From a plasmid, in sequence record NC_017487.1: DNA of 35,934 nucleotides; one strand, 5' to 3'. A program made the translations under genes and the position numbers. Below the pieces are notes generated by a model. The model was not told the DNA's origin. It was given only the letters and a program-made list of their open reading frames with translations, and made no database searches. This document shows positions 1-21,122 of this stretch, piece after piece. How positions within the stretch are numbered: the first letter of the stretch is position 1; every line of letters starts with the position of its first letter.

Positions 1-196
1 ATAACCGATACAAACAGACTGATCAAATTCTATATTGATTAGTCTGTTTGCTTACGGGATGATTTTGACTTTTGATTTTAAATTTTTGAAAAAAATAAAA
101 AAAGGCGAAGCCTATATTAATTTATCATATATATTTTAATCTTTTCTTCTTTTGCGTCAAAAAAAAGTGAGTGTTTTCAAGGGGTTAAAGAATAAT

Positions 197-274
197 ATGT
201 GGAGAAAAAACTGTTTATATATGGAGAAAAAACTGTTTATATATGGAGAAAAAACTGTTTATACATGGAGAATG
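197..274 (+). repeat. three and a half tandem 22-bp iterons (atatggagaaaaaactgtttat)
   Basis: Direct tandem repeats at 197-218, 219-240 and 241-262, with a partial copy at 263-274. Confidence 0.9.
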
Positions 275-306
275 TCTATTATCTTCTCCATGTATTATGG
301 TATAAT
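264..306 (+). promoter_or_regulatory. inverted repeat catggagaa...ttctccatg (264-291) overlapping the putative repB promoter; -10 TATAAT at 301-306
   Basis: Perfect 9-bp arms right after the last partial iteron, followed by tggtataat. Resembles the RepB autoregulation operator of lactococcal theta plasmids. Confidence 0.55.
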
Positions 307-380
307 AAAAGCATGAAGAAACACTTTTCGTCGAGAGAATCTTCATGCGTATCTAAAAACACTCAAAGGAGCGTATTTCT

Positions 381-1532
381 ATGTCTAGTATACCAAAAAA
401 TGAACAAAATCAGAAGCAGGTGCAAATCTTGAACGAATTATCAAAACGAAAAGTAGTGGAGCATAATTCTTTAATTACCAGCATTGCCAAAATGGATAAA
501 ACCCCACTCAAAATGTTTGAGTTAGCCGTATCGTGCATTGATACCGAAGAACCGCCTAAAGATCATACAGTCTATCTCTCAAAAGAAGAACTTTTTACGT
601 TTTTTAAAGTTTCTGATAATGACAAACATAGTCGTTTCAAGCAGGCAGTTGAGAATATGCAGAAACAAGCTTTTTTCAAAATTAAAGAAAAAAAAGAACA
701 TGGGTTTGAGTTTGAAAATATCGTCCCTATTCCCTATGTAAAGTGGACCGATTATCATGATGAAGTTACTATTCGATTTAGTCCTGAAATCATGCCTTAT
801 CTAATCAATCTTAAAAAGAATTTCACACAACATGCCTTGTCCGATATTTCAGAACTCAATAGTAAACATTCTATCATCTTGTATCGTTGGTTATCCATGA
901 ATTATAACCAATACGAGCATTATAGTTATAAGGGTGGACGGAGAGAAGAACAAGTGGAAGCCTACCGCAATCCTTCAATTTCAATCCGAGAATTACGAGA
1001 AATGACGGATATAGTCAATGAATATAAACTTTTTGCAGATTTAGAAAAATGGATATTAAAAAAACCTTTGGAAGAAATCAATGATCATACTTCTTTTACC
1101 GTGACGTATGACAAAGTCAAAAAGGGGCGCTCGATTGATTCTATCGTCTTTCATATTACGAAAAAACGTCGAGCAGACGATAACAGCTACAAGTTGGAAG
1201 ATAAAGTCTACCAAGAAGATAAAGCACGTAAAGCAGAAACCGAAGACATGCTGACGGTACAAGCCCTAAAAAGTCCGTATACCAAGCTGCTTATGGAACA
1301 TTTCTTATTGTCTTATCTAGACTTGACGGATACTAAAATTCTTTCAGGCTTACAAGCACACGTGTACCCTCTCTATGACGAACTGAAAGACTTACGAGGG
1401 TTGAATGGGGTCAAAGACCACTTGTCTTATGTGAGAGCCAAGCGAGAAGACTACTCAAAGAAAAATATCACTAAGTATCTCAAAAAAGCAATCGAGCAAT
1501 ACCTACCCACGGTTAAAAGGCAGGACTTATGA
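381..1532 (+). CDS. repB: replication initiator RepB (Rep_3 family, lactococcal theta-plasmid type)
   Basis: 383-aa ORF, RBS aaaggag upstream, lies directly downstream of the iterons. Length and sequence character match lactococcal RepB. Confidence 0.9.
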   Translation: MSSIPKNEQNQKQVQILNELSKRKVVEHNSLITSIAKMDKTPLKMFELAVSCIDTEEPPKDHTVYLSKEELFTFFKVSDNDKHSRFKQAVENMQKQAFFKIKEKKEHGFEFENIVPIPYVKWTDYHDEVTIRFSPEIMPYLINLKKNFTQHALSDISELNSKHSIILYRWLSMNYNQYEHYSYKGGRREEQVEAYRNPSISIRELREMTDIVNEYKLFADLEKWILKKPLEEINDHTSFTVTYDKVKKGRSIDSIVFHITKKRRADDNSYKLEDKVYQEDKARKAETEDMLTVQALKSPYTKLLMEHFLLSYLDLTDTKILSGLQAHVYPLYDELKDLRGLNGVKDHLSYVRAKREDYSKKNITKYLKKAIEQYLPTVKRQDL

Positions 1533-2122
1533 TGAGTGAAAAGTTAAAGACAATCAAAGAGCTTGCGGATGAAATAGGTGTTTCAAAGCAAGCTGTATGG
1601 CAAAAAATAAAAAAAGAATCGTCAATAGATTTACGTCAATTTACGTCAAAAAAAGGAAATACCGTTTACGTTGACGTTGATGGTCAAAAAGTTATTAAGA
1701 ATGCTTTTTTTAACAAAACGTCAACTAAAAAACGTCAACAAAAAGTTTTTGTTGACGACAACGTGAATAATTCAGTTGATGACAATCCAGAGGGGAATGA
1801 AGAGATTTTATTTTTAAGGAATCTAGTGTCCGAACTCCAATCAGAAAAAAAAGACCTTCATAAGCTATTAGACCAGCAACAACGCCTAGCTTTGCAGGAT
1901 AAAAAATTGCTAGAAGAATATAAATCAGAAATCAATGAATTGAAAGCTCTTAAAATGCCTCAGGAGGATATGAAAGATGGCTCGTCTATAAGGGGTGAGG
2001 CGCAGGAAGAAATTGAACGACTGAAAGCTCAATTGAAGTTATCAGAAGAAGAACAAAACAAGGCAAAAGAAAAAGAGCCGGTAAAAACAGAATCTAAAAA
2101 ATGGTGGCAACTATGGAAATGA
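1529..2122 (+). CDS. repX: replication-associated protein RepX/OrfX-like (DUF536-like): N-terminal HTH, coiled coil, C-terminal KKWWQLWK
   Basis: Start overlaps the repB stop (ATGA). HTH-like N-terminus ELADEIGVSKQAVWQKI. Conserved LLDQQQRLALQDKKLLEEYK segment is shared with the ORF at 21144-21737. Confidence 0.7.
   Translation: MMSEKLKTIKELADEIGVSKQAVWQKIKKESSIDLRQFTSKKGNTVYVDVDGQKVIKNAFFNKTSTKKRQQKVFVDDNVNNSVDDNPEGNEEILFLRNLVSELQSEKKDLHKLLDQQQRLALQDKKLLEEYKSEINELKALKMPQEDMKDGSSIRGEAQEEIERLKAQLKLSEEEQNKAKEKEPVKTESKKWWQLWK
1630..1766 (+). repeat. cluster of at least six CGTCAA/TTGACG hexamers (including tandem tttacgtcaa x2) embedded in the repX coding sequence
   Basis: tttacgtcaa at 1630-1639 and 1640-1649. 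tttacgttgacgttga at 1665-1680. aacgtcaact at 1717-1726. aacgtcaaca at 1731-1740. ttgttgacgacaacgtg at 1750-1766. Confidence 0.8.
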
Positions 2123-2132
2123 GGGGGATCAA

Positions 2133-5100
2133 ATGAGTCATTCGGAACAAATGATTGAAAACCAGTTCATACAGATCTTAAGTGAGAAAGAAAATCAATG
2201 GACTTATCGTCCGGACTTGAAGTCGGAAGAAGCACTTTGGCAAAACTTTAGAGGTCATTTGAACCGAATTAATTTAGCAGTATTGGAAGAGCAACTATTA
2301 ACGGACAAAGAATTTAAGCAAGTCAAAGTCGAGTTTTCACGTTTGACCGGAACGCCTTTTTTAGCTTCTCAATGGCTTAGAGGAGAAAACGGGGTGGCTC
2401 AAGTTTTATTAGAGCGAGAAGATGGGAAAAAAGTGACTTTAGAAGCCTTTAGAAATAAGGATATCTCAGGAGGAACTTCTTCTTATGAGGTAGTTCACCA
2501 AGTGGTCCCAGATTCCTCTAGAGTAGATCGTGGAGATGTGAGCTTGCTGATTAATGGGCTCCCAATCATTCATATTGAGCTCAAAAAAGAGTCCGCTAAA
2601 GACGGTTTCATGCAAGCTTATTATCAAATTCAGCGTTATGCAGAAGATGGATTTTTTAAAGGGATTTACGCAACTACTCAAATCATGGTGATTTCAAATA
2701 AAGTCGATACCCGATACTTTGCAAGACCTAGTGAAGATACCGCTGAAGCCTATGCTCGGATGAAGAAGTTTTTATTTAATTGGCGGACTGAAGACAATCA
2801 AACGGTTTCCGATTTGTTTGATTTTACTCGTACAGTTTTGCGGATACCCGATGCCCATGAATTGATTAGCCAATATACCATTCTCGTCGATGATCAAAAA
2901 AATCAAAAATTCCTCATGGCTTTAAGACCTTACCAAATTCATGCTATTCGTAAGATTCGTCAAAAAGCGGCACAGCATGAAGGAGGATTTATTTGGCATG
3001 CGACAGGTTCAGGAAAGACCATTACCAGTTTTGTCGCAACGAAATTATTAGCACAAAATGCGATCGGTGTTGATCGTACGGTCATGGTTGTTGATAGAAC
3101 AGACTTAGATGCTCAAACGCAGGATGAGTTTACGAAGTTTGCCTCGGAATATCATACCGGACAAACGACCGGAAATTCGGTAGCCAATACTTTGATTGTT
3201 GGGATCAAAAATCAAAAACAGTTGGCTCGAAACCTCCTATCATCAAAAAATAATAATACGATTTTAGTGACCACGATTCAAAAACTCTCTGCGGCTATGC
3301 GAAGTGCCCAACAAGAGAGTGAAGAAAAAGGCTCGAATCAATTTGAGAAGCTACGGCAAGAACATCTTGTTTTTATTGTTGATGAGGCTCATCGTGCGGT
3401 TAGTGATGAGGAAATGAAGCGAATTAAGAAAATATTACCCAATTCAACCTGGTTTGGATTAACGGGGACGCCTATTTTTGAAGAAAATAAAAAGCAAGAA
3501 AATGGAACCTTTGCCAGAACGACGAGCCAGCAATACGGGCCACTCCTTCACTCCTATACAACCAAAAATGCCATGGATGATGGGGCTGTGTTAGGCTTTC
3601 AAGTCGAGTATCATTCACTGATTTCAGAAGAGGATCAAGAGGTGATTGTCACCCAACTCAATAAAGGAAAGTTGCCAGACGATGCCCTCCAACAAGAAAA
3701 ATTATTGCCTACGGAACTGTATGAAGCAGATGAACATATTCGTACCATGTTACAAAAAATCTTTAATCGGAGAAGTGTGGTCAAAAAGTTCAAGGTAAAG
3801 AATGGTTTTCCTACGATGTCAGCCATTCTTACCACTCACTCGATTGCCCAAGCCAAACATATTTACCGGATTTTAAAGGAAATGAAAGATAATGGGACAC
3901 TCTTGAATGGGCGACAATTTGATGAACGTCATCAACTGATTGATAAAGATTTCCCAAGAGTAGCTATTACCTTCTCAACCAATCCGGATCAATTAGAAAA
4001 AAATGAACAAGACGATGAATTAGTAGAGATCATGAAAGAGTATGCGAAACAGTTTGATGCCTCTCCTTATCAAGATGAGAAACTCTACAATCAAAATATT
4101 AATAAACGGTTGGCCCGTAAGGAAAAGCAATATCAATCGGAGGGTCAGTGGCTAGATTTTGTTATTGTTGTCGATCGTTTATTGACAGGCTTTGATTCTC
4201 CAACGATTCAAACCTTATATATTGATCGAGAAATGAACTATCAAAAGCTCCTTCAAGCGTTCTCAAGAACGAATCGTATTTATACGGGCAAAGATTCTGG
4301 TTTGATTGTCTCTTTTAGAAAGCCCTTCACCATGAAAGAAAATGTGAAAAACACGTTTCGTCTATTCTCAAATGAAAAGCAAAACTTTGATCAACTGATT
4401 CCAAAAGAATATGAAGAAGTCAAAAAAGAATTTATCGAATGTTCAACACTTTATAAACAAAGCGAAGCCGACCTATCGGATAATCCCAATGATCTTAAAA
4501 CGATGATTGCGCAAGTGAGTGCTTATCAAAAGCTAGAAAAGAGTTATAAAGCGCTCCGAAGCTATGATCAATACGAAGAGGACTTTGAAGCATTTTCAGA
4601 AGTAGTGGAGCAGTTGCCACAATATCAAGGAAAAACAGAAAATATTAAAACAAAGATTAAAGAAATGATCGAGGATGAGGAGCATCCTGAGGAGGACTTC
4701 GAGAAGCTTTTACAAGAGATTGCTTTTTCTTCGCAGCTCAATGCGACACATAAAGACGTCGTGGATAGTTTTTATATTAATCAACTTTTGAAAGCGATCC
4801 AATTAAACGAAGCAGGGGCCGTTGAAAAATTTGAAAAAGAAATCCAACAAAAGGATCCTCAAATCCAAAAGATGTATCACACCTTGAAAGATCAACTCGT
4901 CAATACTACTGAAGAGATCGATGTGGCTCAATTAAAAGAGACTTCGATTCAAAATGAAATTCAAAGACAACTTCAAAAAGAAGCTGAAGAATTTGGATTA
5001 TCCTTCGACTTTTTACAGTCTGCAATGAATGAATATCAAGGCGATAAGAAAACGATCCCTTATTTAACCCATTTACTGGATTCGATGACTCTTAGTAAAG

Positions 5101-5210
5101 AAGAGTTCGAAGCCAAAACGGGTGAAAAATACAGAAGAAGAACAAAAGTTTTAGAAGAACGACTACAACAAAACTTTGAACATCTTCAAAAATGGAAAGA
5201 AGAATTATAA
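2133..5210 (+). CDS. hsdR: type I restriction enzyme R subunit HsdR (SF2 helicase/ATPase motifs)
   Basis: 1025-aa ORF with an ATGSGKT Walker A and a DEAH-like VDEAHR motif. Upstream of the M and S genes. Its stop overlaps the hsdM start (TAATG). Confidence 0.92.
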   Translation: MSHSEQMIENQFIQILSEKENQWTYRPDLKSEEALWQNFRGHLNRINLAVLEEQLLTDKEFKQVKVEFSRLTGTPFLASQWLRGENGVAQVLLEREDGKKVTLEAFRNKDISGGTSSYEVVHQVVPDSSRVDRGDVSLLINGLPIIHIELKKESAKDGFMQAYYQIQRYAEDGFFKGIYATTQIMVISNKVDTRYFARPSEDTAEAYARMKKFLFNWRTEDNQTVSDLFDFTRTVLRIPDAHELISQYTILVDDQKNQKFLMALRPYQIHAIRKIRQKAAQHEGGFIWHATGSGKTITSFVATKLLAQNAIGVDRTVMVVDRTDLDAQTQDEFTKFASEYHTGQTTGNSVANTLIVGIKNQKQLARNLLSSKNNNTILVTTIQKLSAAMRSAQQESEEKGSNQFEKLRQEHLVFIVDEAHRAVSDEEMKRIKKILPNSTWFGLTGTPIFEENKKQENGTFARTTSQQYGPLLHSYTTKNAMDDGAVLGFQVEYHSLISEEDQEVIVTQLNKGKLPDDALQQEKLLPTELYEADEHIRTMLQKIFNRRSVVKKFKVKNGFPTMSAILTTHSIAQAKHIYRILKEMKDNGTLLNGRQFDERHQLIDKDFPRVAITFSTNPDQLEKNEQDDELVEIMKEYAKQFDASPYQDEKLYNQNINKRLARKEKQYQSEGQWLDFVIVVDRLLTGFDSPTIQTLYIDREMNYQKLLQAFSRTNRIYTGKDSGLIVSFRKPFTMKENVKNTFRLFSNEKQNFDQLIPKEYEEVKKEFIECSTLYKQSEADLSDNPNDLKTMIAQVSAYQKLEKSYKALRSYDQYEEDFEAFSEVVEQLPQYQGKTENIKTKIKEMIEDEEHPEEDFEKLLQEIAFSSQLNATHKDVVDSFYINQLLKAIQLNEAGAVEKFEKEIQQKDPQIQKMYHTLKDQLVNTTEEIDVAQLKETSIQNEIQRQLQKEAEEFGLSFDFLQSAMNEYQGDKKTIPYLTHLLDSMTLSKEEFEAKTGEKYRRRTKVLEERLQQNFEHLQKWKEEL

Positions 5211-6805
5211 TGGCAACAGGTTTAAATCAACAACTATGGGCTTCTGCGGATATCTTACGTGGGAAGATGGATGCAAGTGAGTACAAAAACTACTTACTGG
5301 GATTAATTTTCTATAAGTACTTGTCTGATGCGCAGCTTAGAGAAGTTTATGAACAAGAAAATGGAAAAACAGATACCTTCCCAGAACGTTCCACTCAGTA
5401 TGCAGGATTCATGGAGTGGTACGAAGAAGACAAAGACGATTTAATCGAAAATATCCAACCCAAACAAGGCTACTTTATCCAACCCGATCAATTGTTTTAT
5501 CACTACCGCATCAAAGCTGATAACTATGAATTTAACTTGACCGACTTACAAGCAGGTTTTAATGAGTTGGAACGTCAAGGAGAAGAATTTAGTGGATTGT
5601 TTGCGGATATTGATTTAAACTCCACAAAATTAGGCTCAAATGCACAACAACGTAATGTGACGATTACTGAGGTTTTACGTGCCTTAGATGAGATTGACTT
5701 ATTTGAACACAATGGCGATGTCATTGGAGATGCTTATGAGTATTTAATCGGGATGTTTGCGGCAGGTGCAGGTAAAAAAGCAGGAGAGTTTTATACCCCT
5801 CAAGCTGTTTCACGCATCATGTCAGAAATTACGTCGATCGGACAAGAATCTCGAGCGCCTTTTCATATTTACGACCCTGCGATGGGTTCAGGTTCTTTGA
5901 TGCTTAATATCCGTCGCTATCTCATCAACCCAAATCAAGTCCATTATCATGGCCAAGAGCTAAATACGACGACCTTTAACTTAGCGCGTATGAACTTAAT
6001 CCTTCATGGAGTAGATAAAGAACGCATGAACCTGAATAACGGGGACACTTTAGACGCCGATTGGCCGTCAGAAGAGCCTTATCAGTTTGATTCTGTGGTC
6101 ATGAACCCTCCTTACTCTGCGAAATGGTCAGCGGCAGATAAGTTTCTCTCTGACCCTCGTTTTGAGCGTTTTGGAAAATTAGCGCCTAAATCTAAAGCGG
6201 ACTTTGCCTTTCTCCTTCACGGTTTTTACCATTTGAAAGAATCGGGAACAATGGGGATTGTCCTGCCTCATGGCGTGCTCTTTAGAGGAGCCGCAGAAGG
6301 AACCATCCGTCAAGCTCTTTTAGAGATGGGAGCTATTGATGCAGTCATTGGCTTGCCGGCCAATATCTTTTTTGGAACCAGTATTCCGACAACGGTTATT
6401 ATTTTGAAGAAAAACCGCTCTCGTCGCGATGTCTTGTTTATCGATGCTTCTCAAGATTTTGAAAAACAAAAAAATCAAAATGTCCTGTTGGATGAACATA
6501 TTGATAAAATTGTTTCTACCTACAAAAAGCGAGAAGATATTGAAAGATATGCTCATGTTGCAAGTTTTGATGAGATCCAAGAAAATGACTTTAACTTAAA
6601 TATCCCTCGTTATGTCGATACCTTTGAGGAAGAGGAACCGGTTGATTTGGTTGCAGTAAATACCAATCTCCTTAAGATCAATGAAGAATTAGTTCAACAA
6701 GAGCAAGTGCTCTTATCGTTGATTGACAATTTTTCAGAAAGTGAAGAGAATCAAGCCTTGATTGAATCGATGCGTCTTCTTTTGAGAGGCGGTCATGATG
6801 AGTAA
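5210..6805 (+). CDS. hsdM: type I restriction-modification N6-adenine methyltransferase HsdM
   Basis: NPPY motif (VMNPPYS) and SAM-binding DPAMGSGS. The ATG at 5210 shares its A with the hsdR TAA, which fits better than the longer ORF starting at 5192. Confidence 0.92.
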   Translation: MATGLNQQLWASADILRGKMDASEYKNYLLGLIFYKYLSDAQLREVYEQENGKTDTFPERSTQYAGFMEWYEEDKDDLIENIQPKQGYFIQPDQLFYHYRIKADNYEFNLTDLQAGFNELERQGEEFSGLFADIDLNSTKLGSNAQQRNVTITEVLRALDEIDLFEHNGDVIGDAYEYLIGMFAAGAGKKAGEFYTPQAVSRIMSEITSIGQESRAPFHIYDPAMGSGSLMLNIRRYLINPNQVHYHGQELNTTTFNLARMNLILHGVDKERMNLNNGDTLDADWPSEEPYQFDSVVMNPPYSAKWSAADKFLSDPRFERFGKLAPKSKADFAFLLHGFYHLKESGTMGIVLPHGVLFRGAAEGTIRQALLEMGAIDAVIGLPANIFFGTSIPTTVIILKKNRSRRDVLFIDASQDFEKQKNQNVLLDEHIDKIVSTYKKREDIERYAHVASFDEIQENDFNLNIPRYVDTFEEEEPVDLVAVNTNLLKINEELVQQEQVLLSLIDNFSESEENQALIESMRLLLRGGHDE

Positions 6806-7991
6806 AAAAAGTCCACAATTAAGGTTTGAAGGTTTTACGGATGATTGGGAAGAACGTAAGTTAGGGGAATTAGGTTCTGTAGCGATGAATAGAAGGATTT
6901 TCAAAGATCAAACTTCAGAAAACGAAGAAGTCCCATTTTTTAAAATCGGTACTTTTGGAAGCAAACCAGATGCTTTTATCTCTCGTGAATTGTTTGAAGA
7001 ATATAAATTGAAATATCCATATCCAGAAATAGGGGATATTTTAATATCTGCTTCTGGAAGCATAGGTAGAACTGTTGTATATCAAGGGAAAGATGAATAT
7101 TTTCAAGATAGCAATATAGTTTGGTTAAAGCATGATGATCGCTTGAATAATAAGTTTTTAAAGCAGTTTTATTCGATTGTTAAGTGGCAAGGATTAGAAG
7201 GAAGTACGATTAAACGGCTATATAATAAAAACATTTTAGATACAGATATTAGTATCCCTAGTACCATTGAACAAAATAAGATAGGGATGTTCTTTGAACA
7301 ATTAGACGACACTATCGCTCTTCATCAGCGTAAGTTAGATTTGTTGAAAGAACAGAAAAAAGGATACTTACAAAAAATGTTCCCCAAAAATGGGGAAAAA
7401 GTTCCTGAATTGCGATTTGCGGGGTTTGCTGACGATTGGGAAGAGCATAAGTTGGGTGATTATATCATTCAGTATAGTGAAAAAACTAAACAGAATAATC
7501 AATATCCTGTTTTCACCTCCTCTAGGAATGGATTATTTTTTCAGAAGGATTACTATAAAGGGAATCAAATTGCATCCGAAGACAATATCGGATATAACAT
7601 TGTTCCCAGGGGATACTTCACATATAGGCATATGTCAGATGATCTTGTTTTTAAATTTAATATAAACGATCTAGCTGACTATGGCATTGTTAGTACTTTA
7701 TATCCTGTTTTCACCACAAATGAGCAATTAAACTCTAAATATTTACAATATCAGTTGAACGAAGGATCTGAATTTAGACGTTTTTCTCTTTTGCAAAAAC
7801 AAGGTGGTTCTCGAACATATATGTATTTAAATAAATTACAAAATATGATTTTAAATATTCCAAAATTAGAAGAGCAACAAAAAATAGGCTCATTCTTCCA
7901 ACAATTAGATGAAACTATCGCTCTTCATCAACGTAAGTTAGATTTGTTGAAAGAACAGAAAAAAGGCTTTTTACAAAAGATGTTTGTTTAG
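6795..7991 (+). CDS. hsdS: type I specificity subunit HsdS with two target-recognition domains
   Basis: 398 aa. Duplicated conserved segments LDDTIALHQRKLDLLKEQKKGYLQKMFP and LDETIALHQRKLDLLKEQKKGFLQKMFV. Start overlaps the hsdM end. Confidence 0.9.
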   Translation: MMSKKSPQLRFEGFTDDWEERKLGELGSVAMNRRIFKDQTSENEEVPFFKIGTFGSKPDAFISRELFEEYKLKYPYPEIGDILISASGSIGRTVVYQGKDEYFQDSNIVWLKHDDRLNNKFLKQFYSIVKWQGLEGSTIKRLYNKNILDTDISIPSTIEQNKIGMFFEQLDDTIALHQRKLDLLKEQKKGYLQKMFPKNGEKVPELRFAGFADDWEEHKLGDYIIQYSEKTKQNNQYPVFTSSRNGLFFQKDYYKGNQIASEDNIGYNIVPRGYFTYRHMSDDLVFKFNINDLADYGIVSTLYPVFTTNEQLNSKYLQYQLNEGSEFRRFSLLQKQGGSRTYMYLNKLQNMILNIPKLEEQQKIGSFFQQLDETIALHQRKLDLLKEQKKGFLQKMFV

Positions 7992-8005
7992 GGTCTATAA
8001 TTATA
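7990..8005 (+). repeat. 16-bp direct repeat agggtctataattata, copy 1
   Basis: An exact 16-mer recurs at 9384-9399, bracketing the corA-like cassette. Confidence 0.7.
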
Positions 8006-8176
8006 AATTAGATAATACATTAGAAGCTGGAGACGAGATTGTCTAGATAATGTGCGAGATAAAATTTTTAGCAGGTTATCATACATAAGACAAAATGTTT
8101 TTAAAACTGATAACGTATTTATTCCACAACAATTACGCATTTATTTTTGAGAAAAATATAAAGCAGGAGGATTACA

Positions 8177-9127
8177 ATGCTGAAAACTTATTCTTTAACA
8201 AAAAATACATTATTAGTTTCGTCAGAATCAAATATCAAAAATTCGTCTGTTGTTTATGTTTATGGTGACGAACGAGAATATATCGAATCTTTTGAACATA
8301 GATCTGACTTTAACATAGACAATATACTAACGTTTGATGATCGAGTTGCATATGACACGATGATAGATCAGAACGATGAAAAAAGTTTGCTCGTAAGTTA
8401 TTTGTTTCCCGAGATACATGAAGGTGGGCATCTAGATAATCTGACGACATCTGTTGTTTTCTTGGTATTTAAAAATAAGTTGATAATTTTTACAAAACAA
8501 AAATTAAAATTCATTCCCGAACTCTTATCCAATATGGTTTTACATGATGTCGATAATTTCATGCAGGAAGTACTTTTAAAGATCATGCAAAAAGATTTCC
8601 ATGTGATGCTTGACGACCTTCGTGGAGTCAAGGAAAAAATTGATGATTTAGACTCAGAAATATCAACGTCCGGTTCACTCAGACCAACGTTTGGTGATTT
8701 ATTGACTCTTCAAAAATACATGATAGCTTTGTCAACAACCTATGGCGCTAATCACAAAGCGCTGGATTTCATTAAAAAAAATTTTACAACTATTAATGAT
8801 ATTGATTTTACCACCCAAAAAATAATTGATGAGATATACAATACAAGCGACACAATGGATAGAATTATTTTAGGTTACAGTCAATATTTGGATTATTTGG
8901 AAAATATGATAAACAATATGATTTCGTATCAGCTAAACATGATTATGAAAACTCTAACAGAGATATCAATCGTTTTGACTATTCCAGCAATTATTTTTGG
9001 TTTTTGGGGAGTCAATGTCGATGGCCCGTTTGAAAAATCTTCTTATGGTGTTTTTGCTGTGCTGATTATCTCTGTTATACTAAGCCTAATTTGCTGGTTT
9101 TTGCTGCGACGCAAAACATATTTGTAA
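8177..9127 (+). CDS. CorA-family divalent cation (Mg2+/Co2+) transporter-like protein
   Basis: 316 aa with RBS aggagg. Cytoplasmic N-domain, two C-terminal TM helices, and a GVN variant of the CorA GMN signature (FGFWGVNVDGPF). Confidence 0.6.
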   Translation: MLKTYSLTKNTLLVSSESNIKNSSVVYVYGDEREYIESFEHRSDFNIDNILTFDDRVAYDTMIDQNDEKSLLVSYLFPEIHEGGHLDNLTTSVVFLVFKNKLIIFTKQKLKFIPELLSNMVLHDVDNFMQEVLLKIMQKDFHVMLDDLRGVKEKIDDLDSEISTSGSLRPTFGDLLTLQKYMIALSTTYGANHKALDFIKKNFTTINDIDFTTQKIIDEIYNTSDTMDRIILGYSQYLDYLENMINNMISYQLNMIMKTLTEISIVLTIPAIIFGFWGVNVDGPFEKSSYGVFAVLIISVILSLICWFLLRRKTYL

Positions 9128-9383
9128 AGTATTTGTGATACCCCAATATGATTTAAAGCAGAATTTCTTTGTTGACTTATTAAAAGGCTGGTTCCTTTCA
9201 ATAATTTAATAGCTTCAGCGGCTTCCTTCACAGTATGAGAGTTAGAATATTCAAAGATAGCCATATATCCTCTGACAATTGATATGTTGATTAAATGGTC
9301 ACATGATAAGGGTATAAACGAAAAGTTGTTTGGGATGCCAGACTAGGGACTATACTAGAAAACATCAGTACATTCCTTAGCTC

Positions 9384-9399
9384 AGGGTCTATAATTATA
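9384..9399 (+). repeat. 16-bp direct repeat agggtctataattata, copy 2
   Basis: Identical to 7990-8005. Confidence 0.7.
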
Positions 9400-9426
9400 T
9401 AATCGCCCCTGTGAAAACTTATTAAA

Positions 9427-9472
9427 ACAGCCCCTGTTATCTAATCCTTAGATAACAGGGGCTGTTTTTTTA
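9427..9472 (+). terminator. rho-independent terminator (15-bp stem, T-run)
   Basis: acagcccctgttatc ... gataacaggggctgt followed by ttttttt. Confidence 0.7.
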
Positions 9473-9494
9473 TTTATATGGTATAATAGTGCTT

Positions 9495-9761
9495 AAAAAC
9501 GTGAAGTATCTGAACAATTTAATAGAACAAGATCATAGGCCAATTAAGCGACGGAATAAATTTTATCGAAGTCTCCGGACTGCCTCATCCACGATTAGGG
9601 GGATGGAGACCATTCAAGGAATATATAAAAAGAACCGAAGAAATGGAACACTCTTCGGCTTTTCAGTTTCTACTGAAATCAAAATATTAATGGGAATACC
9701 TGCTTAGATTGACGGTTGGTCAGAGATAGTGTTTTTGAGTTGCAGACTTTGCAACAGAACC
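9495..9761 (+). mobile_element. IS6-family (IS1216/ISS1-like) 3'-terminal fragment with terminal inverted repeat
   Basis: ORF 9489-9707 encodes the transposase C-terminus (...NLIEQDHRPIKRRNKFY...GFSVSTEIKILMGIPA). Ends in the IR ...ctttgcaacagaacc at 9761. Confidence 0.8.
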
Positions 9762-9813
9762 AAATGGAGTAAATAACAGTTTAAACATAGTTAAACCAAT
9801 TGGGGAGCAAAGA

Positions 9814-10161
9814 GTGTCCAATTATGGACAACCAAAAGCATTCCTGGATATATTCTATACTGGTATTACTTTCTGGTATTCTTATAGAAATGATAATGCC
9901 CTGATTGCGATTGGAGTAAATAATTCAATGACAAAAGGATTAAATCGTCAAAACAATTCATATGGCAAATTTGTAACTTTGTGGGGAACATGTTCTAATG
10001 AAGCAATTCTTCTTGGGAAATATGGTCTATTAGGAATTTCTTTATCATATTTGGCGGCTATCTTTGCTGTTGCTGATGCCATCATTTTATATAAGAGCGA
10101 TATTAATAAACTAAAAAATACTTTTGTTGAGGCTTTTAATGATGATGATAGAAGACCTTAA
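9814..10161 (+). CDS. hypothetical small membrane protein (115 aa, GTG start)
   Basis: Long open frame in roughly 75% AT DNA. RBS ggggag 8 nt before the GTG. Two predicted TM segments. Confidence 0.5.
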   Translation: MSNYGQPKAFLDIFYTGITFWYSYRNDNALIAIGVNNSMTKGLNRQNNSYGKFVTLWGTCSNEAILLGKYGLLGISLSYLAAIFAVADAIILYKSDINKLKNTFVEAFNDDDRRP

Positions 10162-18206: not shown

Positions 18207-19014
18207 GGTTCTGTTGCGAAGTTTGAAAATCAAACGCGCCCTCTCTGAACTCCAAATATCTTAGGCTGTTATTCCCATTAATACCTTGATTTAAGTAGAC
18301 ACCGAAAAGCCGAAGAGCGTTCCATTTCTTCGGTTCTTTTTATATATTCCTCGAAGGGTCTCCATGCCCTTAATCGTGGAAGAGGCTGTACGGAGACTTT
18401 GATAAAATTTATTCCGTCGTTTAATAGGTCGATGGTCTTGTTCTATTAAATTGTTAAGATACTTCGCAGTTCGGTGCTCTGTCTTAGGATATAAACCCAC
18501 ACTCTGTAACTTTCTAAAGACGGAGCCAAGAGAAGGTGCTTTATCGGTCACAATTGCTTTCGGCTCACCAAACTGTTTATGGAGTCGTTTTAAGAAAGCA
18601 TAGGCTGCTTGCGTATCCCGTTTCTTTCGTAACCAGATATCTAAGGTTAAGCCGTCCGCATCAATTGCACGATAAAGATAATGCCAACGTCCCTTAATTT
18701 TGATATAGGTTTCGTCCATTTTCCATGAATAGAAGGATTGTCTATTTTGCTTCTTCCAAAGATAATAGAGGACTTTGCTGTACCCTTGCACCCAACGATA
18801 AATCGTAGTATGACAAACATTTATTCCACGATCATATAACAATTCCTGAACTTCACGATAGCTTAGATTGTAACGCAGGTAGTAACCAACAGCGACAATA
18901 ATGACGTCTTTTTTGAATTGTTTGCCTTTAAAATGATTCATTACTCTGTCCTCTCTGTCTTTTTTCTCAATTTTACACTAAAATAGATTTTTTGGAAAAC
19001 TTTGCAACAGAACC
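18207..19014 (-). mobile_element. IS6-family element (IS1216/ISS1-like), 808 bp, copy B, inverted relative to copy A
   Basis: IRs ggttctgttgcgaagttt (18207) and ggaaaactttgcaacagaacc (ending 19014). Transposase ORF 18291-18941. Confidence 0.88.
18291..18941 (-). CDS. IS6-family transposase, 216 aa, shortened by about 10 aa by a premature stop (GAA to TAA)
   Basis: Full N-terminus MNHFKGKQFKKDVIIVAVGYY.... Ends ...GFSVST*. Other copies continue EIKVLMGIPA. Confidence 0.85.
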   Translation of the reverse strand: MNHFKGKQFKKDVIIVAVGYYLRYNLSYREVQELLYDRGINVCHTTIYRWVQGYSKVLYYLWKKQNRQSFYSWKMDETYIKIKGRWHYLYRAIDADGLTLDIWLRKKRDTQAAYAFLKRLHKQFGEPKAIVTDKAPSLGSVFRKLQSVGLYPKTEHRTAKYLNNLIEQDHRPIKRRNKFYQSLRTASSTIKGMETLRGIYKKNRRNGTLFGFSVST

Positions 19015-19209: not shown

Positions 19210-20889
19210 ATGGACTTAGTCGAAGAACTAGTCAATGTTGTTGGTAAAAAAAATGTTATTACTAACAAAGCAAAATCTTTACGTTTTAGGAAAGGGTACC
19301 GCTCAGGTAAGGGCGATGCAGTTGCAGTCGTATTTCCAACCACTTTAATGGCAATGTGGCGTGTGCTTAATGTTTTGCATGATAACAATATTATCATTAT
19401 TATGCAAGCAGCCAACACTAGTTTGACTGAGGGATCCGTACCAGCCCCAGGTTATGACCGTTCTGCAGTTGTTGTGAACGGCATGAAAATTAAAGATTTA
19501 CAGTTAATCAATAATGGGGAACAAGTACTAGCATTCCCCGGTACGACACTGTTTCACTTAGAAAATGAATTGCGACCACTTAAACGTGAACCACATTCAG
19601 TCATTGGCTCATCTAATTTGGGTGCATCGGTCATTGGTGGTATTAACAACAATTCTGGTGGTGCTTTGATCAGAAGAGGTCCAGCTTATACAGAGCTATC
19701 ATTGTATGTTTGGATTGATGAACATGACGAAATGCACTTAGTTAACCATTTAGGCATTGATTTGGGCAAAACGCCCGAAGAGATTATTACTAATTTGCAG
19801 AACCGCAATTTTGATTTGAATCAAGTACCAGCTACTGAACATCATGGTTCAATGTTCCATCATGAACAGGTTGTGCGTGACGTTGAATCTGATAAGCCTA
19901 TTCGATACAATGCAAATCCTAAAGAATTGTATGAAGTATCTGGATCGTCCGGTCACGTTGCGGCATTGGCTGTCCGCTTAGATACATTCCCAATGGATAA
20001 AAAAACACAAATGTTTTACATTGGAACGAATAATCCCGATGAGTTGGAAGATATTCGTCGCCATATTATGACGACATTCAAAGAATTGCCTGTTTCTGGT
20101 GAATATATGCATAAAAATGCTTATAAATTGGCCAAGAAATATGGTAAAGACTCACTAATTGTGATTGAAAAAATTGGTACGGGTCATTTGCCCCAAATGT
20201 TTGCGCTAAAAGCATGGGGCGAACGCTTTTTGAAGCACATTCCGTTTTTCAAACCTTATTTCCCAGATCGTTTGCTTCAAACATTAAGTAATTTATTTCC
20301 TAATCAAATGCCAAAGCGGTTAGATGATTATTACGAAAAGTACGACCATTACCTACAATTGAAAATGGCTGGTAATGGTATTGAAGAAGCGCGAGAGTAT
20401 CTCAAATCTTATTTTGACAAAGCCAGTGGCGACTACTTTGAAGCCGATGCCAATGAGACCAGTAAAGCGGAAACTCACCGCTATGTAACAGCTGGGGTTG
20501 CGATTCGATATCAAGAATTAAAACAGGATAGTATTGACATTTTGCCACTAGATATCGCGTTGGCAAGTAATGATTATAAGTGGTTCGAGCATTTGCCTAA
20601 AGAGATTGAAGACAAAATAAAACACAAAATTTATTATGGTCACTTACTTGATCACGTTATGCACCAGGATTATATTCTAAAACCTGGCGTCGATGCGCAT
20701 GAACTTAAAAAAGAAATGCTTAAAATTTTGGATGAGCGTCACGCTGTTTATCCAGCCGAACAAAATGTTGGGCATCTATATTTGGCAGCACCGGCCTTAA
20801 TCAAGCACTATAAGAAAAATGATCCAACTAATAGTTTCAACCCTGGCGTTGGTAAACAAACAATGTCTAAATATTGGGGCGAATACTAA
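19210..20889 (+). CDS. dld: FAD-dependent, quinone-linked D-lactate dehydrogenase (Dld-type)
   Basis: 559 aa, colinear with E. coli Dld (HSVIGSS.IGASVIGGI.NNSGG, GTN.P, PAEHNVGHLY...NDPTNS.NPG.GK). Confidence 0.88.
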   Translation: MDLVEELVNVVGKKNVITNKAKSLRFRKGYRSGKGDAVAVVFPTTLMAMWRVLNVLHDNNIIIIMQAANTSLTEGSVPAPGYDRSAVVVNGMKIKDLQLINNGEQVLAFPGTTLFHLENELRPLKREPHSVIGSSNLGASVIGGINNNSGGALIRRGPAYTELSLYVWIDEHDEMHLVNHLGIDLGKTPEEIITNLQNRNFDLNQVPATEHHGSMFHHEQVVRDVESDKPIRYNANPKELYEVSGSSGHVAALAVRLDTFPMDKKTQMFYIGTNNPDELEDIRRHIMTTFKELPVSGEYMHKNAYKLAKKYGKDSLIVIEKIGTGHLPQMFALKAWGERFLKHIPFFKPYFPDRLLQTLSNLFPNQMPKRLDDYYEKYDHYLQLKMAGNGIEEAREYLKSYFDKASGDYFEADANETSKAETHRYVTAGVAIRYQELKQDSIDILPLDIALASNDYKWFEHLPKEIEDKIKHKIYYGHLLDHVMHQDYILKPGVDAHELKKEMLKILDERHAVYPAEQNVGHLYLAAPALIKHYKKNDPTNSFNPGVGKQTMSKYWGEY

Positions 20890-20995
20890 AATAAAAAGTT
20901 TGTTAAAAAATAACCGTTATCGTCATTTGTCGATTCTGTAGTGACCCCTACTGATTGTTCTTAAAACAGTAACCAAATATTTAAAGATATACTTT

Positions 20996-21122
20996 AAAAA
21001 AACTTTTTAAAATTTTTAAAAAGTTTTTTATTGTTTTTTATATGATAAAATATAGCTATTAAAAGATTTAATAAAATTAAATTGAAAGTTTTTTTAAAAA
21101 TTTTTAAAAAAATTTTATAGAA
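20996..21122. promoter_or_regulatory. extremely AT-rich region with a perfect 33-bp palindrome (20996-21028) and a 24-bp palindrome (about 21090-21114)
   Basis: aaaaaactttttaaaa t ttttaaaaagtttttt and tttttttaaaaa tttttaaaaaaa. Confidence 0.45.

What the first reader, a model, noticed from the sequence alone, without database searches (positions are those of the whole stretch)
1630..1766. Iteron-like CGTCAA/TTGACG repeat cluster hidden inside the repX coding sequence
At least six copies of CGTCAA/TTGACG sit within about 137 bp, including a tandem 10-bp direct repeat tttacgtcaa x2 and the palindromic acgttgacgt. From local base composition I expect fewer than 0.1 copies of this hexamer. The encoded peptide is not repetitive, so the constraint appears to act on the DNA. 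This looks like a protein-binding array. It could be a centromere, copy-control or incompatibility site, or an operator for the HTH-containing RepX itself. I do not know it as a described feature of lactococcal orfX/repX genes.
Basis: seen in the sequence. Interest (0 to 1): 0.55.

Follow-up and report, generated by a model that had tools for sequence, protein, structure and literature searches.

The report
Putative partition site inside plasmid orfX gene
Seven copies of a 6-base DNA word sit inside a lactococcal plasmid gene, and that gene encodes a relative of the staphylococcal Par plasmid-segregation protein, so the words are most likely the protein's own docking sites written into its coding sequence.

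Summary
CGTCAA/TTGACG occurs 7 times in window 1620-1757, against 17 times in the other 35.8 kb. The copies use two reading frames and both orientations. Given the protein sequence and local codon usage, about 1.0 copy is expected (P about 5e-5).

Orthologues about 70% identical keep five of the seven sites. One site keeps its CG while the codon changes between Ser, Ala and Thr.

OrfX/RepX is a homologue of the pSK1 Par single-protein partition factor: winged HTH, coiled coil with a DUF536-like stretch, and a KKWW tail. The pSK1 Par centromere has a similar anatomy, with 7 direct and 1 inverted short repeat in about 110 bp, but it lies upstream of par.

Here the array lies in a 270-bp variable cassette (1589-1858). 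The cassette also encodes the recognition helix, wing and linker. Other cassette types carry their own short repeats at the same place. The window-type cassette occurs behind two unrelated initiators.

Best reading: a centromere-like binding array for OrfX embedded in orfX. Binding and function are inferred, not shown. Two co-resident plasmids of one strain share the cassette, which argues against strict incompatibility. I class it as a new variant of a known kind, of moderate to high interest.

The parts
1529..2122 (+). orfX/repX gene (197 aa from ATG 1529; RefSeq-style start at 1532 gives 196 aa). It overlaps the repB stop codon. It encodes a pSK1 Par / RocS-like protein.
   Evidence: ORF list. 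The profile of 9 diverse OrfX proteins hits PDB 8csh (pSK1 Par) at E=1.4e-5 over both the HTH and the DUF536-like stretch. The Foldseek top hit is 8csh_A.
1532..1720 (+). [quoted passage not shown] Helix 1 is residues 8-15, the recognition helix 19-28, the wing strands 38-41 and 44-47, and helix 3 residues 49-63.
   Evidence: AlphaFold2 model md1f0a8530282. Match to the Par DNA-binding domain bound to centromere DNA: TM 0.82, rmsd 2.1 A, 30% identity. RacA-DNA ranks third.
1589..1858 (+). Variable 'specificity cassette'. It encodes the recognition helix, wing, helix 3 and disordered linker, and it contains the hexamer array. Conserved DNA flanks it on both sides.
   Evidence: Pairwise identity to other OrfX types is high up to about 1588, about 30-45% across 1589-1858, and 80-100% from 1859 on. 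The two-piece BLAST hits show the same pattern.
1620..1757 (.). The array: 7 CGTCAA/TTGACG sites with start-to-start spacings of 14, 10, 27, 48, 14 and 19 bp. Five of the seven read ACGTCAA and four read CGTCAAC.
1620..1625 (+). Site 1 (aatCGTCAAtag), frame 1, codons TCG TCA (Ser-Ser).
   Evidence: Kept in 8 of 9 unique sequences of the about 70%-identical clade. The codon holding the CG is TCG, GCG or ACG (Ser, Ala or Thr).
1634..1639 (+). Site 2 (ttaCGTCAAttt), frame 0, codons CGT CAA (Arg-Gln).
   Evidence: Kept in 9 of 9 divergent sequences.
1644..1649 (+). Site 3 (ttaCGTCAAaaa), frame 1, codons ACG TCA (Thr-Ser).
   Evidence: Kept in the lactococcal clade. It degrades to CATCAA in most of the divergent clade, where 1 of 9 keep it.
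1671..1676 (-). Site 4 (TTGACG on the + strand), inverted orientation, within codons GTT GAC GTT.
   Evidence: Lost in the divergent clade (0 of 9). It is replaced by TTGATG, or by a TTGACG shifted 3 bp in L032 and L050.
1719..1724 (+). Site 5 (aaaCGTCAActa), frame 1, codons ACG TCA.
   Evidence: Kept in 6 of 9 divergent sequences with an ACG to TCG (Thr to Ser) change that preserves the CG.
1733..1738 (+). Site 6 (aaaCGTCAAcaa), frame 0, codons CGT CAA.
   Evidence: Kept in 5 of 9 divergent sequences. It is the left arm of the 1733-1757 palindrome.
1752..1757 (-). Site 7 (TTGACG on the + strand), inverted orientation, within codons GTT GAC GAC.
   Evidence: Kept in 9 of 9 divergent sequences. 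It is the right arm of the palindrome.
1677..1682 (-). Degenerate site TTGATG (CATCAA on the - strand), one mismatch from the hexamer.
   Evidence: Read from the sequence. CATCAAC is the commonest 7-mer in the divergent orthologue L031.
1776..1781 (-). Degenerate site TTGATG, one mismatch from the hexamer.
   Evidence: Read from the sequence. The protein would allow TTGACG at this position.
1787..1951 (+). Coding region of the long coiled-coil helix (residues 86-140). It includes the family-invariant LLDQQQRLALQDKKLLEEYK, the DUF536-like stretch.
   Evidence: AF2 secondary structure, invariant columns in alignment A1, and alignment to Par LLENQQILALESNKK.
2096..2119 (+). C-terminal KKWWQLWK tail, a predicted short helix. 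It is a candidate membrane-binding amphipathic helix, as in RocS and Par.
   Evidence: Helix 191-195 in the model. K190 and W191 are invariant across OrfX types. The analogy to the RocS/Par amphipathic helix comes from PMC11500499. Membrane binding was not tested.
381..1532 (+). repB, a Rep_3-type initiator with the lactococcal RepB C-terminal domain. It is context, not part of the array.
   Evidence: Pfam Rep3_N, Rep3_C and L_lactis_RepB_C.
195..272 (+). The replicon's true iterons: a 22-bp unit repeated 3.5 times (ATATATGGAGAAAAAACTGTTT). They are unrelated in sequence to CGTCAA.
   Evidence: Read from the sequence. Described for this plasmid family in PMC3138775.

Best explanation
The CGTCAA array is a cluster of cis-acting DNA sites under selection at the DNA level. 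It is most likely bound by the winged-HTH domain of OrfX, the protein encoded by the same gene. OrfX is a homologue of the pSK1 Par single-protein partition factor.

Proposed mechanism:
1. OrfX oligomerises through its coiled coil.
2. It coats the 7-9 short sites, forming a centromere-like nucleoprotein complex on the plasmid.
3. Through its conserved DUF536-like stretch and KKWW tail it tethers or positions the plasmid, on the membrane or the nucleoid, so that daughter cells inherit it. No partner NTPase is involved.

orfX overlaps repB, so there is no upstream intergenic space. The sites are therefore written into the coding DNA, inside the same 270-bp variable cassette that encodes the recognition helix and wing. 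Protein specificity and target site are then inherited and exchanged together.

Shown: the enrichment, the DNA-level conservation, the homology to Par, the cassette structure, and type-specific repeats in other OrfX variants.
Inferred: that OrfX binds these sites, and that the complex serves segregation rather than regulation.
For: (1) There are 7 copies in 138 bp against 17 in the remaining 35.8 kb. Given the protein sequence, 1.04 copies are expected, P about 5e-5. It is the only such cluster in the window.

(2) The sites use two reading frames and both orientations, so the signal is not a peptide repeat.

(3) The array is conserved in a clade about 70% identical (Weissella, Latilactobacillus, Lactiplantibacillus and metagenome contigs). 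Hexamer columns differ at 2 of 42 positions, other cassette columns at 38 of 149, Fisher p=0.002. Site 1 keeps its CG through TCG, GCG and ACG codons.

(4) OrfX is homologous to pSK1 Par. The profile hit to 8csh has E=1.4e-5. The AF2 N-terminal domain best matches the Par DNA-binding domain bound to centromere DNA, with TM 0.82 and rmsd 2.1 A.

(5) The pSK1 centromere seen in L117 has a similar anatomy. It has 7 direct TTAGG(T/C) repeats plus 1 inverted repeat in about 110 bp, with spacings of 11, 9, 22, 31, 13 and 11 bp.

(6) Other OrfX cassette types carry their own short repeated words at the same place. An unbiased top-k-mer test against a synonymous null is significant for several of them: ACTAGTA, GACAAA, TGTTTAA, TATCTAA and CGAAAAC, the last found in three frames. 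In-frame tandem arrays show invariant cores and copy-number variation.

(7) The CGTCAA cassette occurs behind two unrelated initiators (74% and 23% identity to the window RepB). It therefore goes with OrfX and not with Rep.

(8) None of the window's other ORFs of 140 aa or more that were scanned against Pfam is a ParA, ParM or TubZ. In pIL4 the slot behind repB holds a ParA gene instead of orfX.

(9) The literature says that orfX is dispensable for replication but affects stability or copy number in some plasmids (PMC3138775, PMC3387028).

(10) Stand-alone Par-like genes have repeats upstream and no internal array. This holds for pSK1 par and for window 21144-21737.
Against: No binding data exist for any lactococcal OrfX.

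Third-codon-position conservation alone is not significant: 2 of 14 against 17 of 49, p=0.19.

Sites 3 and 4 are not conserved in the divergent clade.

Because repeats and specificity residues lie in the same cassette, their co-variation is automatic. It does not prove recognition.

Some types gave no significant repeat signal, namely L034 and L032.

L. lactis strain 223 carries two co-resident plasmids, pLla223III and pLla223IV, with near-identical cassettes of 6 and 7 sites. That is not expected of a strong partition-incompatibility determinant.

The window OrfX itself does not reach Pfam DUF536.

A centromere inside a transcribed and translated gene must tolerate RNA polymerase passing through it.
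Confidence: 0.55

Rival explanations
1. The array is an operator or regulatory roadblock. OrfX binds it to modulate transcription or translation of repB-orfX-hsdR, or to influence copy number, rather than to segregate plasmids.
For: The evidence for binding is the same as for the main explanation. The literature credits orfX homologues with effects on copy number as well as stability. The array lies just upstream of the hsdRMS genes.
Against: The sites lie about 1.3 kb downstream of the repB promoter region and inside the regulator's own gene. No promoter-like element coincides with them. The replicon already has the ctRNA_pND324 counter-transcript for copy control. The conserved DUF536-like stretch and the KKWW tail are features of segregation proteins. 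This rival is not exclusive with a centromere role.
Confidence: 0.15
2. The array is bound by a different protein, such as RepB, a host factor or a protein of a co-resident element. An example would be an auxiliary replication or handcuffing site.
For: DNA-level selection is shown, but the binder is not identified. One CGTCAA also lies in the conserved ori AT-rich region at 155.
Against: The array accompanies the OrfX cassette behind two unrelated initiators. It bears no resemblance to the 22-bp iterons. The ori-proximal ttcttttgcgtcaaaaaaaagtga is present whatever the OrfX type, so it is not linked to the array. Every OrfX type has a different repeat word, which fits a variable plasmid-encoded binder better than a constant host factor.
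Confidence: 0.1
3. There is no DNA function. The hexamers are a by-product of amino-acid composition, codon choice and small local duplications in a fast-evolving linker. The 10-bp and 14-bp tandem copies would be examples of such duplications.
For: Two short tandem duplications account for 4 of the 7 copies. Many other OrfX types have in-frame tandem repeats with variable copy number, typical of slippage in disordered linkers. The third-position test alone is not significant.
Against: The enrichment persists given the protein (P about 5e-5). The sites use two frames and both strands. Four of them lie in DNA that encodes the structured loop and wing rather than the linker. The sites survive about 30% nucleotide divergence, and amino-acid changes preserve the CG. 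A 10-bp duplication would shift the reading frame, so it could not simply be tolerated as slippage.
Confidence: 0.12
4. The array is an RNA-level or antisense element. The 1733-1757 palindrome would act as an intrinsic terminator for antisense transcription, or the repeated ACGUCAA would be recognised in the mRNA.
For: There is a terminator-like hairpin with a T-run on the minus strand at 1757-1733.
Against: In the divergent clade only the two hexamers are conserved and the stem between them is not. No Rfam family matches the region. No antisense promoter was detected. Sites in both orientations argue for duplex DNA recognition.
Confidence: 0.03

Closest known systems
pSK1 Par single-protein partition system of Staphylococcus aureus (Simpson 2003; Chan 2022; PDB 8csh)
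   Same: The protein is homologous: an N-terminal MerR-type winged HTH, a coiled coil with a DUF536-like stretch, a short C-terminal helix, and no NTPase partner. The cis site is a cluster of 7-8 short words (core 6-8 bp) in about 110-140 bp. The words have irregular spacing, several gaps being about one helical turn, and mixed orientation.
   Different: In pSK1 the repeats lie in the intergenic region just upstream of par, which is transcribed divergently from a RepA_N rep gene. Here they lie inside orfX, which is co-transcribed with and overlaps a Rep_3 repB. The word differs (TTAGGT against CGTCAA). Binding and a stability function are proven for pSK1 and not here.
RocS of Streptococcus pneumoniae (chromosome segregation)
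   Same: The three-part architecture is the same: wHTH, coiled coil with DUF536, and a C-terminal amphipathic helix. PMC11500499 links RocS to Par through the DUF536-plus-amphipathic-helix module.
   Different: RocS is chromosomal and no defined repeat array is known for it. Its DNA binding is regulated by StkP phosphorylation.
RacA and ram sites of Bacillus subtilis
   Same: RacA has a structurally similar wHTH, ranked third by Foldseek. It binds clustered centromere-like sites, and the ram consensus TGACGCCGGCGTCA contains the CGTCA core (PMC4914108).
   Different: The ram site is a 14-bp GC-rich palindrome on the chromosome, and RacA anchors through DivIVA. The shared CGTCA core may be coincidence. 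No base-contact mapping onto OrfX was possible.
RepA_N replicons (pAD1, pSK41 and relatives), with the origin inside the rep gene
   Same: A cis-acting repeat array is embedded in the central variable part of the gene whose product binds it, so site and specificity evolve together. This comparison rests on my own knowledge of Weaver et al. 2009.
   Different: Those arrays are replication origins bound by the initiator. orfX is dispensable for replication, and the true origin here lies upstream of repB.
parS inside spo0J/parB (B. subtilis)
   Same: It is a precedent for a centromere site that lies within the coding sequence of the centromere-binding protein. This comparison rests on my own knowledge of Lin and Grossman 1998.
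   Different: That case is a single 16-bp palindrome bound by a ParB-family CTPase with a ParA partner. The fold and the mechanism are unrelated.
pUCL287-type RepB (Tetragenococcus, Latilactobacillus)
   Same: It belongs to the same protein family (DUF536-containing, overlapping the upstream rep gene) and is credited with copy-number and stability effects. L033 shows the CGTCAA cassette in exactly this context.
   Different: No intragenic sites have been described for it. Published attention went to the 11-bp and 22-bp repeats upstream of repA.

Membership tests
pSK1 Par-type single-protein partition system | N-terminal MerR-type winged HTH homologous to the Par DNA-binding domain | tested here: met
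   The profile of alignment A1 hits 8csh Par at E=1.4e-5. The AF2 model against 8csh_A gives TM 0.82, rmsd 2.1 A, 30% identity, and is the top PDB hit.
pSK1 Par-type single-protein partition system | Central coiled coil containing DUF536 (PF04394) | tested here: inconclusive
   The window OrfX gives no PF04394 hit at E<0.1. The relative L036 scores 16.2 bits, below the 20.7 cut-off. However, the family profile aligns LLDQQQRLALQDKK to the DUF536 region of Par, and Par itself scores 27.3 bits. A long helix is predicted at residues 86-140.
pSK1 Par-type single-protein partition system | Cluster of short repeats next to the gene that acts as the centromere | tested here: inconclusive
   A cluster of comparable size, copy number and spacing exists. 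It lies inside the gene, not upstream, and its centromere function is untested.
pSK1 Par-type single-protein partition system | No plasmid-encoded partition NTPase partner | tested here: met
   The Pfam scans cover 23 of the window's 26 ORFs of 140 aa or more and show no ParA, ParM or TubZ. The three not scanned are 2133-5210 (taken as hsdR from its homologue's annotation), 18291-18941 and 19210-20889 (annotated as dld in pIL5). Smaller ORFs were not scanned.
pSK1 Par-type single-protein partition system | The protein binds the repeats specifically and increases segregational stability | not testable with these tools
   This needs EMSA or footprinting and plasmid-loss assays.
Iterons (initiator-binding origin repeats) | Direct repeats of about 17-22 bp, in one orientation, regularly spaced, at the origin, and matched to the Rep protein | tested here: not met
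   The core is only 6-7 bp, the orientation is mixed, and the spacing is 10-48 bp. The replicon's real 22-bp iterons are at 195-272. The same array sits behind initiators only 23% identical to each other.
ParABS type I partition (parS and ParB) | A ParB-family protein with a ParA ATPase and a palindromic parS | tested here: not met
   No ParB or ParA domains were found in OrfX or in the other ORFs scanned.
RepA_N-type intragenic origin | The repeat array inside the gene is the replication origin, and the gene product is the essential initiator | tested here: not met
   OrfX has no RepA_N domain. The literature states that orfX is not essential for replication (PMC3138775). This family is an analogy only.
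Known RNA families (Rfam) | A covariance-model match over the array | tested here: not met
   The only significant match in 1-2400 is ctRNA_pND324 at 298-381 on the - strand. Nothing matches at 1600-1800.

The most novel reading that the evidence does not exclude
Across the whole OrfX/RepX family of lactic-acid-bacterial theta plasmids, the centromere is encoded inside the partition gene itself. A cassette of about 270 bp, flanked by conserved DNA, holds both the specificity-determining recognition helix and wing and the matching array of short binding sites. The cassette would act as a self-contained, swappable partition-specificity module. Recombination at its conserved flanks would create new specificities, letting many related plasmids coexist in one cell. 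This would give the 30-year-old 'replication-associated' orfX a function and describe a new way of organising a segregation locus.
Probability: 0.4. Interest if true: 0.75.

Novelty: new variant of a known kind. Interest (0 to 1): 0.6.

Why it matters
Most lactococcal, enterococcal and lactobacillar theta plasmids carry orfX/repX. These include industrially important dairy plasmids and plasmids found in Listeria and Enterococcus. The gene has been called 'replication-associated' with no mechanism.

If the intragenic arrays are OrfX centromeres, three things follow.
- It would explain how 30-50 kb low-copy plasmids without ParA/ParB are inherited.
- It would extend the poorly understood single-protein Par/RocS segregation mechanism to a very large plasmid group.
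- It would show that a coding sequence can double as its product's binding-site array, with site and specificity exchanged as one cassette.

It also gives a directly testable design rule for stable food-grade vectors and for predicting plasmid compatibility.

Tried and rejected
(1) Ori-proximal CGTCAA at 155 as a second OrfX site: rejected. The same ttcttttgcgtcaaaaaaaagtga occurs upstream of repB whatever the OrfX type.

(2) TTGACG hexamers as -35 boxes of internal or antisense promoters: rejected. No promoter-like site overlaps them.

(3) The 1733-1757 hairpin as a functional terminator or RNA element: unlikely. The stem is not conserved and only the hexamers are. There is no Rfam match.

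(4) Direct sequence search of OrfX against the PDB found nothing. Only the family profile reached Par.

(5) The first homologous-protein search returned only near-identical proteins, which were useless for diversity. Diversity came from PLSDB, the genome-contig scan and the metagenome scan.

A shallow alignment, A2, was used instead, so the model confidence is moderate (pLDDT 71).

(7) The papers by Chan 2022 and Simpson 2003 on pSK1 par are not held. I read the pSK1 centromere directly from the plasmid sequence.

(8) The similarity of the RacA ram half-site (CGTCA) was noted, but I could not turn it into a residue-to-base argument.

(9) The co-residence test of the incompatibility prediction gave mixed results. 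In IL594, the four sampled plasmids whose orfX array is intact (pIL1, pIL3, pIL5, pIL7) carry four different cassette types, and in pIL4 the pIL3-type copy has lost its array. Strain 223, however, holds two plasmids with the same cassette. No systematic test was possible.

(10) Literature searches for a description of repeats inside orfX/repX found none in the held library. This is absence in that library only.
Full report
CONTEXT

Window 1-2122 is a classical lactococcal pCI305-type theta replicon. It holds the following features.
- An AT-rich region with 3.5 copies of a 22-bp iteron at 195-272.
- The ctRNA_pND324 counter-transcript at 298-381 on the minus strand, 69 bits.
- repB at 381-1532, with Pfam Rep3_N, Rep3_C and L_lactis_RepB_C.
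- orfX/repX at 1529-2122, overlapping the repB stop codon.
- A gene at 2133-5210, taken as hsdR from its homologue's annotation, followed by hsdM and hsdS.

The window is probably a whole 35.9-kb plasmid record. An identical protein is on record on a 35934-bp contig.

THE OBSERVATION

CGTCAA occurs at 1620, 1634, 1644, 1719 and 1733 on the + strand and at 1671 and 1752 on the - strand. That is 7 copies in 138 bp, against 17 in the other 35.8 kb.

TRF confirms the 10-bp tandem repeat at 1629-1649 and adds a 14-bp one at 1715-1744.

The real one is 1733-1757, made of sites 6 and 7.

The hexamers lie in frames 1,0,1,1,1,0,1 and encode SS, RQ, TS, VD, TS, RQ and VD, so the peptide is not repetitive.

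Three tests show the cluster exceeds chance.
1. I resampled synonymous codons for the OrfX protein with the window's own codon usage. This gives 1.04 copies on average, and only 1 of 20000 resamples reaches 7. The protein permits the hexamer at only 12 places, and 10 of those lie in 1620-1776. The amino-acid sequence itself therefore looks shaped to hold the word.
2. Among all 285-nt windows of the sequence, only those over this array reach 6-7 copies of any non-A/T-only 6-mer. The next best is 5.
3. In 45 window-type genes the density is 6.0 per 270 nt inside, against 0.15 per 270 nt in the flanks.

CONSERVATION

I collected orfX genes from PLSDB, from species-representative genomes and from metagenomes. 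That gave 94 genes and 68 distinct variable regions. There are 26 unique DNA versions of the window type.

A clade about 70% identical comes from Weissella, Latilactobacillus, Lactiplantibacillus and food metagenomes. It keeps sites 1, 2, 5, 6 and 7 in 8, 9, 6, 5 and 9 of 9 unique sequences. Sites 3 and 4 decay to CATCAA.

At site 1 the codon carrying the CG is TCG, GCG or ACG (Ser, Ala or Thr). At site 5 it changes from ACG to TCG. The amino acid changes while the DNA word stays.

Between the two clades, hexamer columns differ at 2 of 42 positions and other cassette columns at 38 of 149 (Fisher p=0.002). Third codon positions alone show the same direction, 2 of 14 against 17 of 49, but lack power (p=0.19).

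WHAT ORFX IS

A single-sequence search of the PDB found nothing. A profile of nine diverse OrfX proteins hits pSK1 Par (8csh) at E=1.4e-5. The alignment covers both the HTH (KTIKELADELGVSKQ against KTIKMVADELNVTKQ) and the DUF536 stretch (LLDQQQRLALQDKK against LLENQQILALESNKK).

An AlphaFold2 model (mean pLDDT 71) predicts these elements:
- a winged HTH, with helices at 8-15 and 19-28, strands at 38-41 and 44-47, and a helix at 49-63;
- a disordered linker at 63-85;
- long helices at 86-140 and 151-179;
- a terminal helix at 191-195.

Its best PDB match is the Par DNA-binding domain bound to centromere DNA (TM 0.82, rmsd 2.1 A, 30% identity). RacA-DNA ranks third.

PMC11500499 describes the same three-part architecture for RocS and notes that Par shares the DUF536 and amphipathic-helix module.

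The LAB literature calls orfX/repX dispensable for replication but sometimes involved in stability or copy number. I found no description of repeats inside it.

COMPARISON WITH THE KNOWN CENTROMERE

I read the pSK1 par locus directly (L117). Seven direct TTAGG(T/C) words and one inverted copy lie at about 1374-1484, just upstream of the par ATG. Their spacings are 11, 9, 22, 31, 13 and 11 bp, and there are none inside par.

The window array has 7 words, 2 of them inverted, with spacings of 14, 10, 27, 48, 14 and 19 bp in 138 bp. The anatomy is similar; the location differs.

In pSK1, par has its own upstream intergenic region. Here orfX overlaps repB and has none.

The second Par-like gene of the window (21144-21737) stands alone. 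It has AT-rich palindromic repeats upstream (20993-21030 and 21085-21118) and no internal word cluster. This fits the idea that the sites move into the gene only when no upstream space exists.

CASSETTE STRUCTURE AND FAMILY-WIDE PATTERN

OrfX proteins share an invariant start (MSE.LKTI.ELA.ELGVSKQ), an invariant LLDQQQRLALQDKKLLEEYK and a KKWW tail. Everything between is variable.

At the DNA level, identity to other types is high up to about 1588. It is at random level (30-45%) across 1589-1858, and 80-100% from 1859 on. The variable part is therefore a 270-bp cassette that encodes the recognition helix, wing, helix 3 and linker. The CGTCAA array lies inside it. Four sites lie in DNA encoding the structured loop and wing, and three in the DNA for the end of helix 3 and the linker.

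Nearly every other cassette type carries its own short repeats at the same place. They fall into two groups.
- In-frame tandem arrays with variable copy number. Examples are a 15-bp unit ACACCGTCAAAGACA at x4 or x21, a 24-bp unit at x3, x4 or x8, an 18-bp unit at x4, x7 or x10, and a 33-bp unit at x1, x2 or x3. Their cores are invariant, for example CCGTCAAAG and CCGACAAAG.
- Irregular multi-frame words like those of the window: CGAAAAC in three frames, GACAAA, ACTAGTA, TGTTTAA and TATCTAA.

Many of the irregular words pass an unbiased top-k-mer test against a synonymous null. Some types do not pass, namely L034 and L032.

Because repeats and specificity residues are physically linked, their co-variation is automatic. 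What counts as evidence is that a repeated word exists in type after type.

WHOSE SITE IS IT?

The window-type cassette sits behind a lactococcal RepB (L032, 74% identical to the window RepB). It also sits behind a pUCL287-like RepA that is only 23% identical and lacks the lactococcal C-terminal domain (L033). The array therefore accompanies OrfX and not the initiator.

It has no similarity to the 22-bp iterons. The single CGTCAA in the ori AT-rich region is a constant ori feature whatever the OrfX type.

None of the window's other ORFs of 140 aa or more that were scanned against Pfam is a ParA, ParM or TubZ. In pIL4 the slot directly behind repB is occupied by a ParA gene plus a small gene, which suggests that this slot holds the replicon's partition function.

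TEST OF THE INCOMPATIBILITY PREDICTION

81 PLSDB plasmids carry the window-type cassette at 95% identity or more.

In strain IL594, the four sampled plasmids whose orfX array is intact (pIL1, pIL3, pIL5, pIL7) have four different cassette types. The second pIL4 replicon has the same wHTH type as pIL3, but its repeat array is deleted in frame.

However, L. lactis strain 223 carries pLla223III and pLla223IV with near-identical window-type cassettes of 6 and 7 sites. The array is therefore not a strict incompatibility determinant. Alternatively, these 14-kb plasmids tolerate sharing it. A systematic census is needed.

REJECTED ALTERNATIVES

- No promoter-like site coincides with the hexamers.
- The minus-strand terminator-like hairpin at 1733-1757 is not conserved beyond the two hexamers.
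- No Rfam family matches the array.
- A pure slippage or composition origin is contradicted by the frame and orientation mix, by the codon-independent enrichment, and by conservation over about 30% divergence.

VERDICT

The best explanation, at confidence about 0.55, is a centromere-like array of binding sites for the Par-like OrfX protein, embedded in the cassette of orfX that also encodes the DNA-binding specificity.

Binding and segregation function are inferred from homology and comparative anatomy. They are not shown.

It is a new variant of a known kind: the pSK1 Par-type single-protein partition system with an intragenic centromere that can be swapped as a cassette.

Noticed in passing
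window 21144-21737 (+), with upstream 20993-21030 and 21085-21118: A second, stand-alone Par/OrfX-like gene of 197 aa. It has the HTH DFAKELGVSKQ, the stretch LLDQQQRLSLQDKKLLEEYK and a KKWFQFWK tail, and there is no rep gene upstream. Two AT-rich palindromic repeats (TTTTTAAAA(A)TTTTTAAAAA) lie upstream, like a pSK1-style upstream centromere. An identical gene is on pIL5 (L122 13163-13756).
   Followed up: partly
window 298-381 (-): A strong match to the counter-transcript RNA family ctRNA_pND324 (RF00238, 69 bits, gathering score 45). It overlaps the repB leader. This is the replicon's known antisense copy-control element.
   Followed up: no
L004-L012 (contigs in Streptomyces, Dactylosporangium, Amycolatopsis and Microbispora assemblies); also L018 (Proteus), L015 (Dysgonomonas MAG), L024 (Methanotrichaceae MAG): Near-identical lactococcal repB-orfX plasmid fragments appear as short contigs in assemblies of unrelated organisms. 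Nine of them are NPDC actinomycete genomes. This almost certainly reflects contamination of those public assemblies.
   Followed up: no
L123 (pIL4) minus strand, annotated 47375-47785; compare L124 (pIL3) 1181-1852: The orfX behind the second repB of pIL4 has the same wHTH type as the co-resident pIL3 (TNKTRISRIINK). However, the whole 18-bp repeat array, present about 14 times in pIL3, and part of the coiled coil are deleted in frame (...FKNEMQQRLALQDKK...). This could be loss of a shared cis site between co-resident plasmids, or a chance deletion at CAACAA microhomology.
   Followed up: partly
L123 (pIL4) 7594-9929: In the first pIL4 replicon, the position directly downstream of repB is occupied by a ParA-family gene plus a small ORF instead of orfX. 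The 'behind repB' slot therefore seems to hold alternative partition modules.
   Followed up: no
L118 and L119 (pLla223IV and pLla223III of L. lactis strain 223): Two co-resident 14-kb plasmids carry near-identical window-type cassettes with 7 and 6 CGTCAA sites. Their OrfX C-terminal halves differ.
   Followed up: partly
window 1733-1757: A perfect 11-bp inverted repeat with a 3-nt loop (CGTCAACAAAA AGT TTTTGTTGACG), followed on the minus strand by a T-run. The scan scores it as a terminator-like site. The stem is not conserved in divergent orthologues.
   Followed up: yes
window 140-180 and the equivalent position in many loci: The motif ttcttttgcgtcaaaaaaaagtga in the AT-rich part of the origin is conserved across lactococcal theta replicons, whatever the iteron or OrfX type. 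Its role is unknown to me.
   Followed up: partly
literature: pRC18 of Latilactobacillus curvatus (PMC7117683): A 168-aa DUF536/HTH protein named RepB' is reported as the replicase of a 3.4-kb minimal fragment. By sequence family it is a Par/OrfX-like protein. Either the fragment holds another replication function, or this family can do more than partition.
   Followed up: no
window 2133-7991: A complete type I restriction-modification operon (hsdR, hsdM, hsdS) follows orfX directly. This is the arrangement described for pIL6, whereas most relatives have only hsdS there (PMC3138775).
   Followed up: no
window 11-50: A near-perfect hairpin (acaaacagactgatcaa...ttgattagtctgtttg) at the very start of the window. 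Rfam picks it up only as a spurious miRNA-like match. It is probably a terminator of the preceding gene on the circular plasmid.
   Followed up: no
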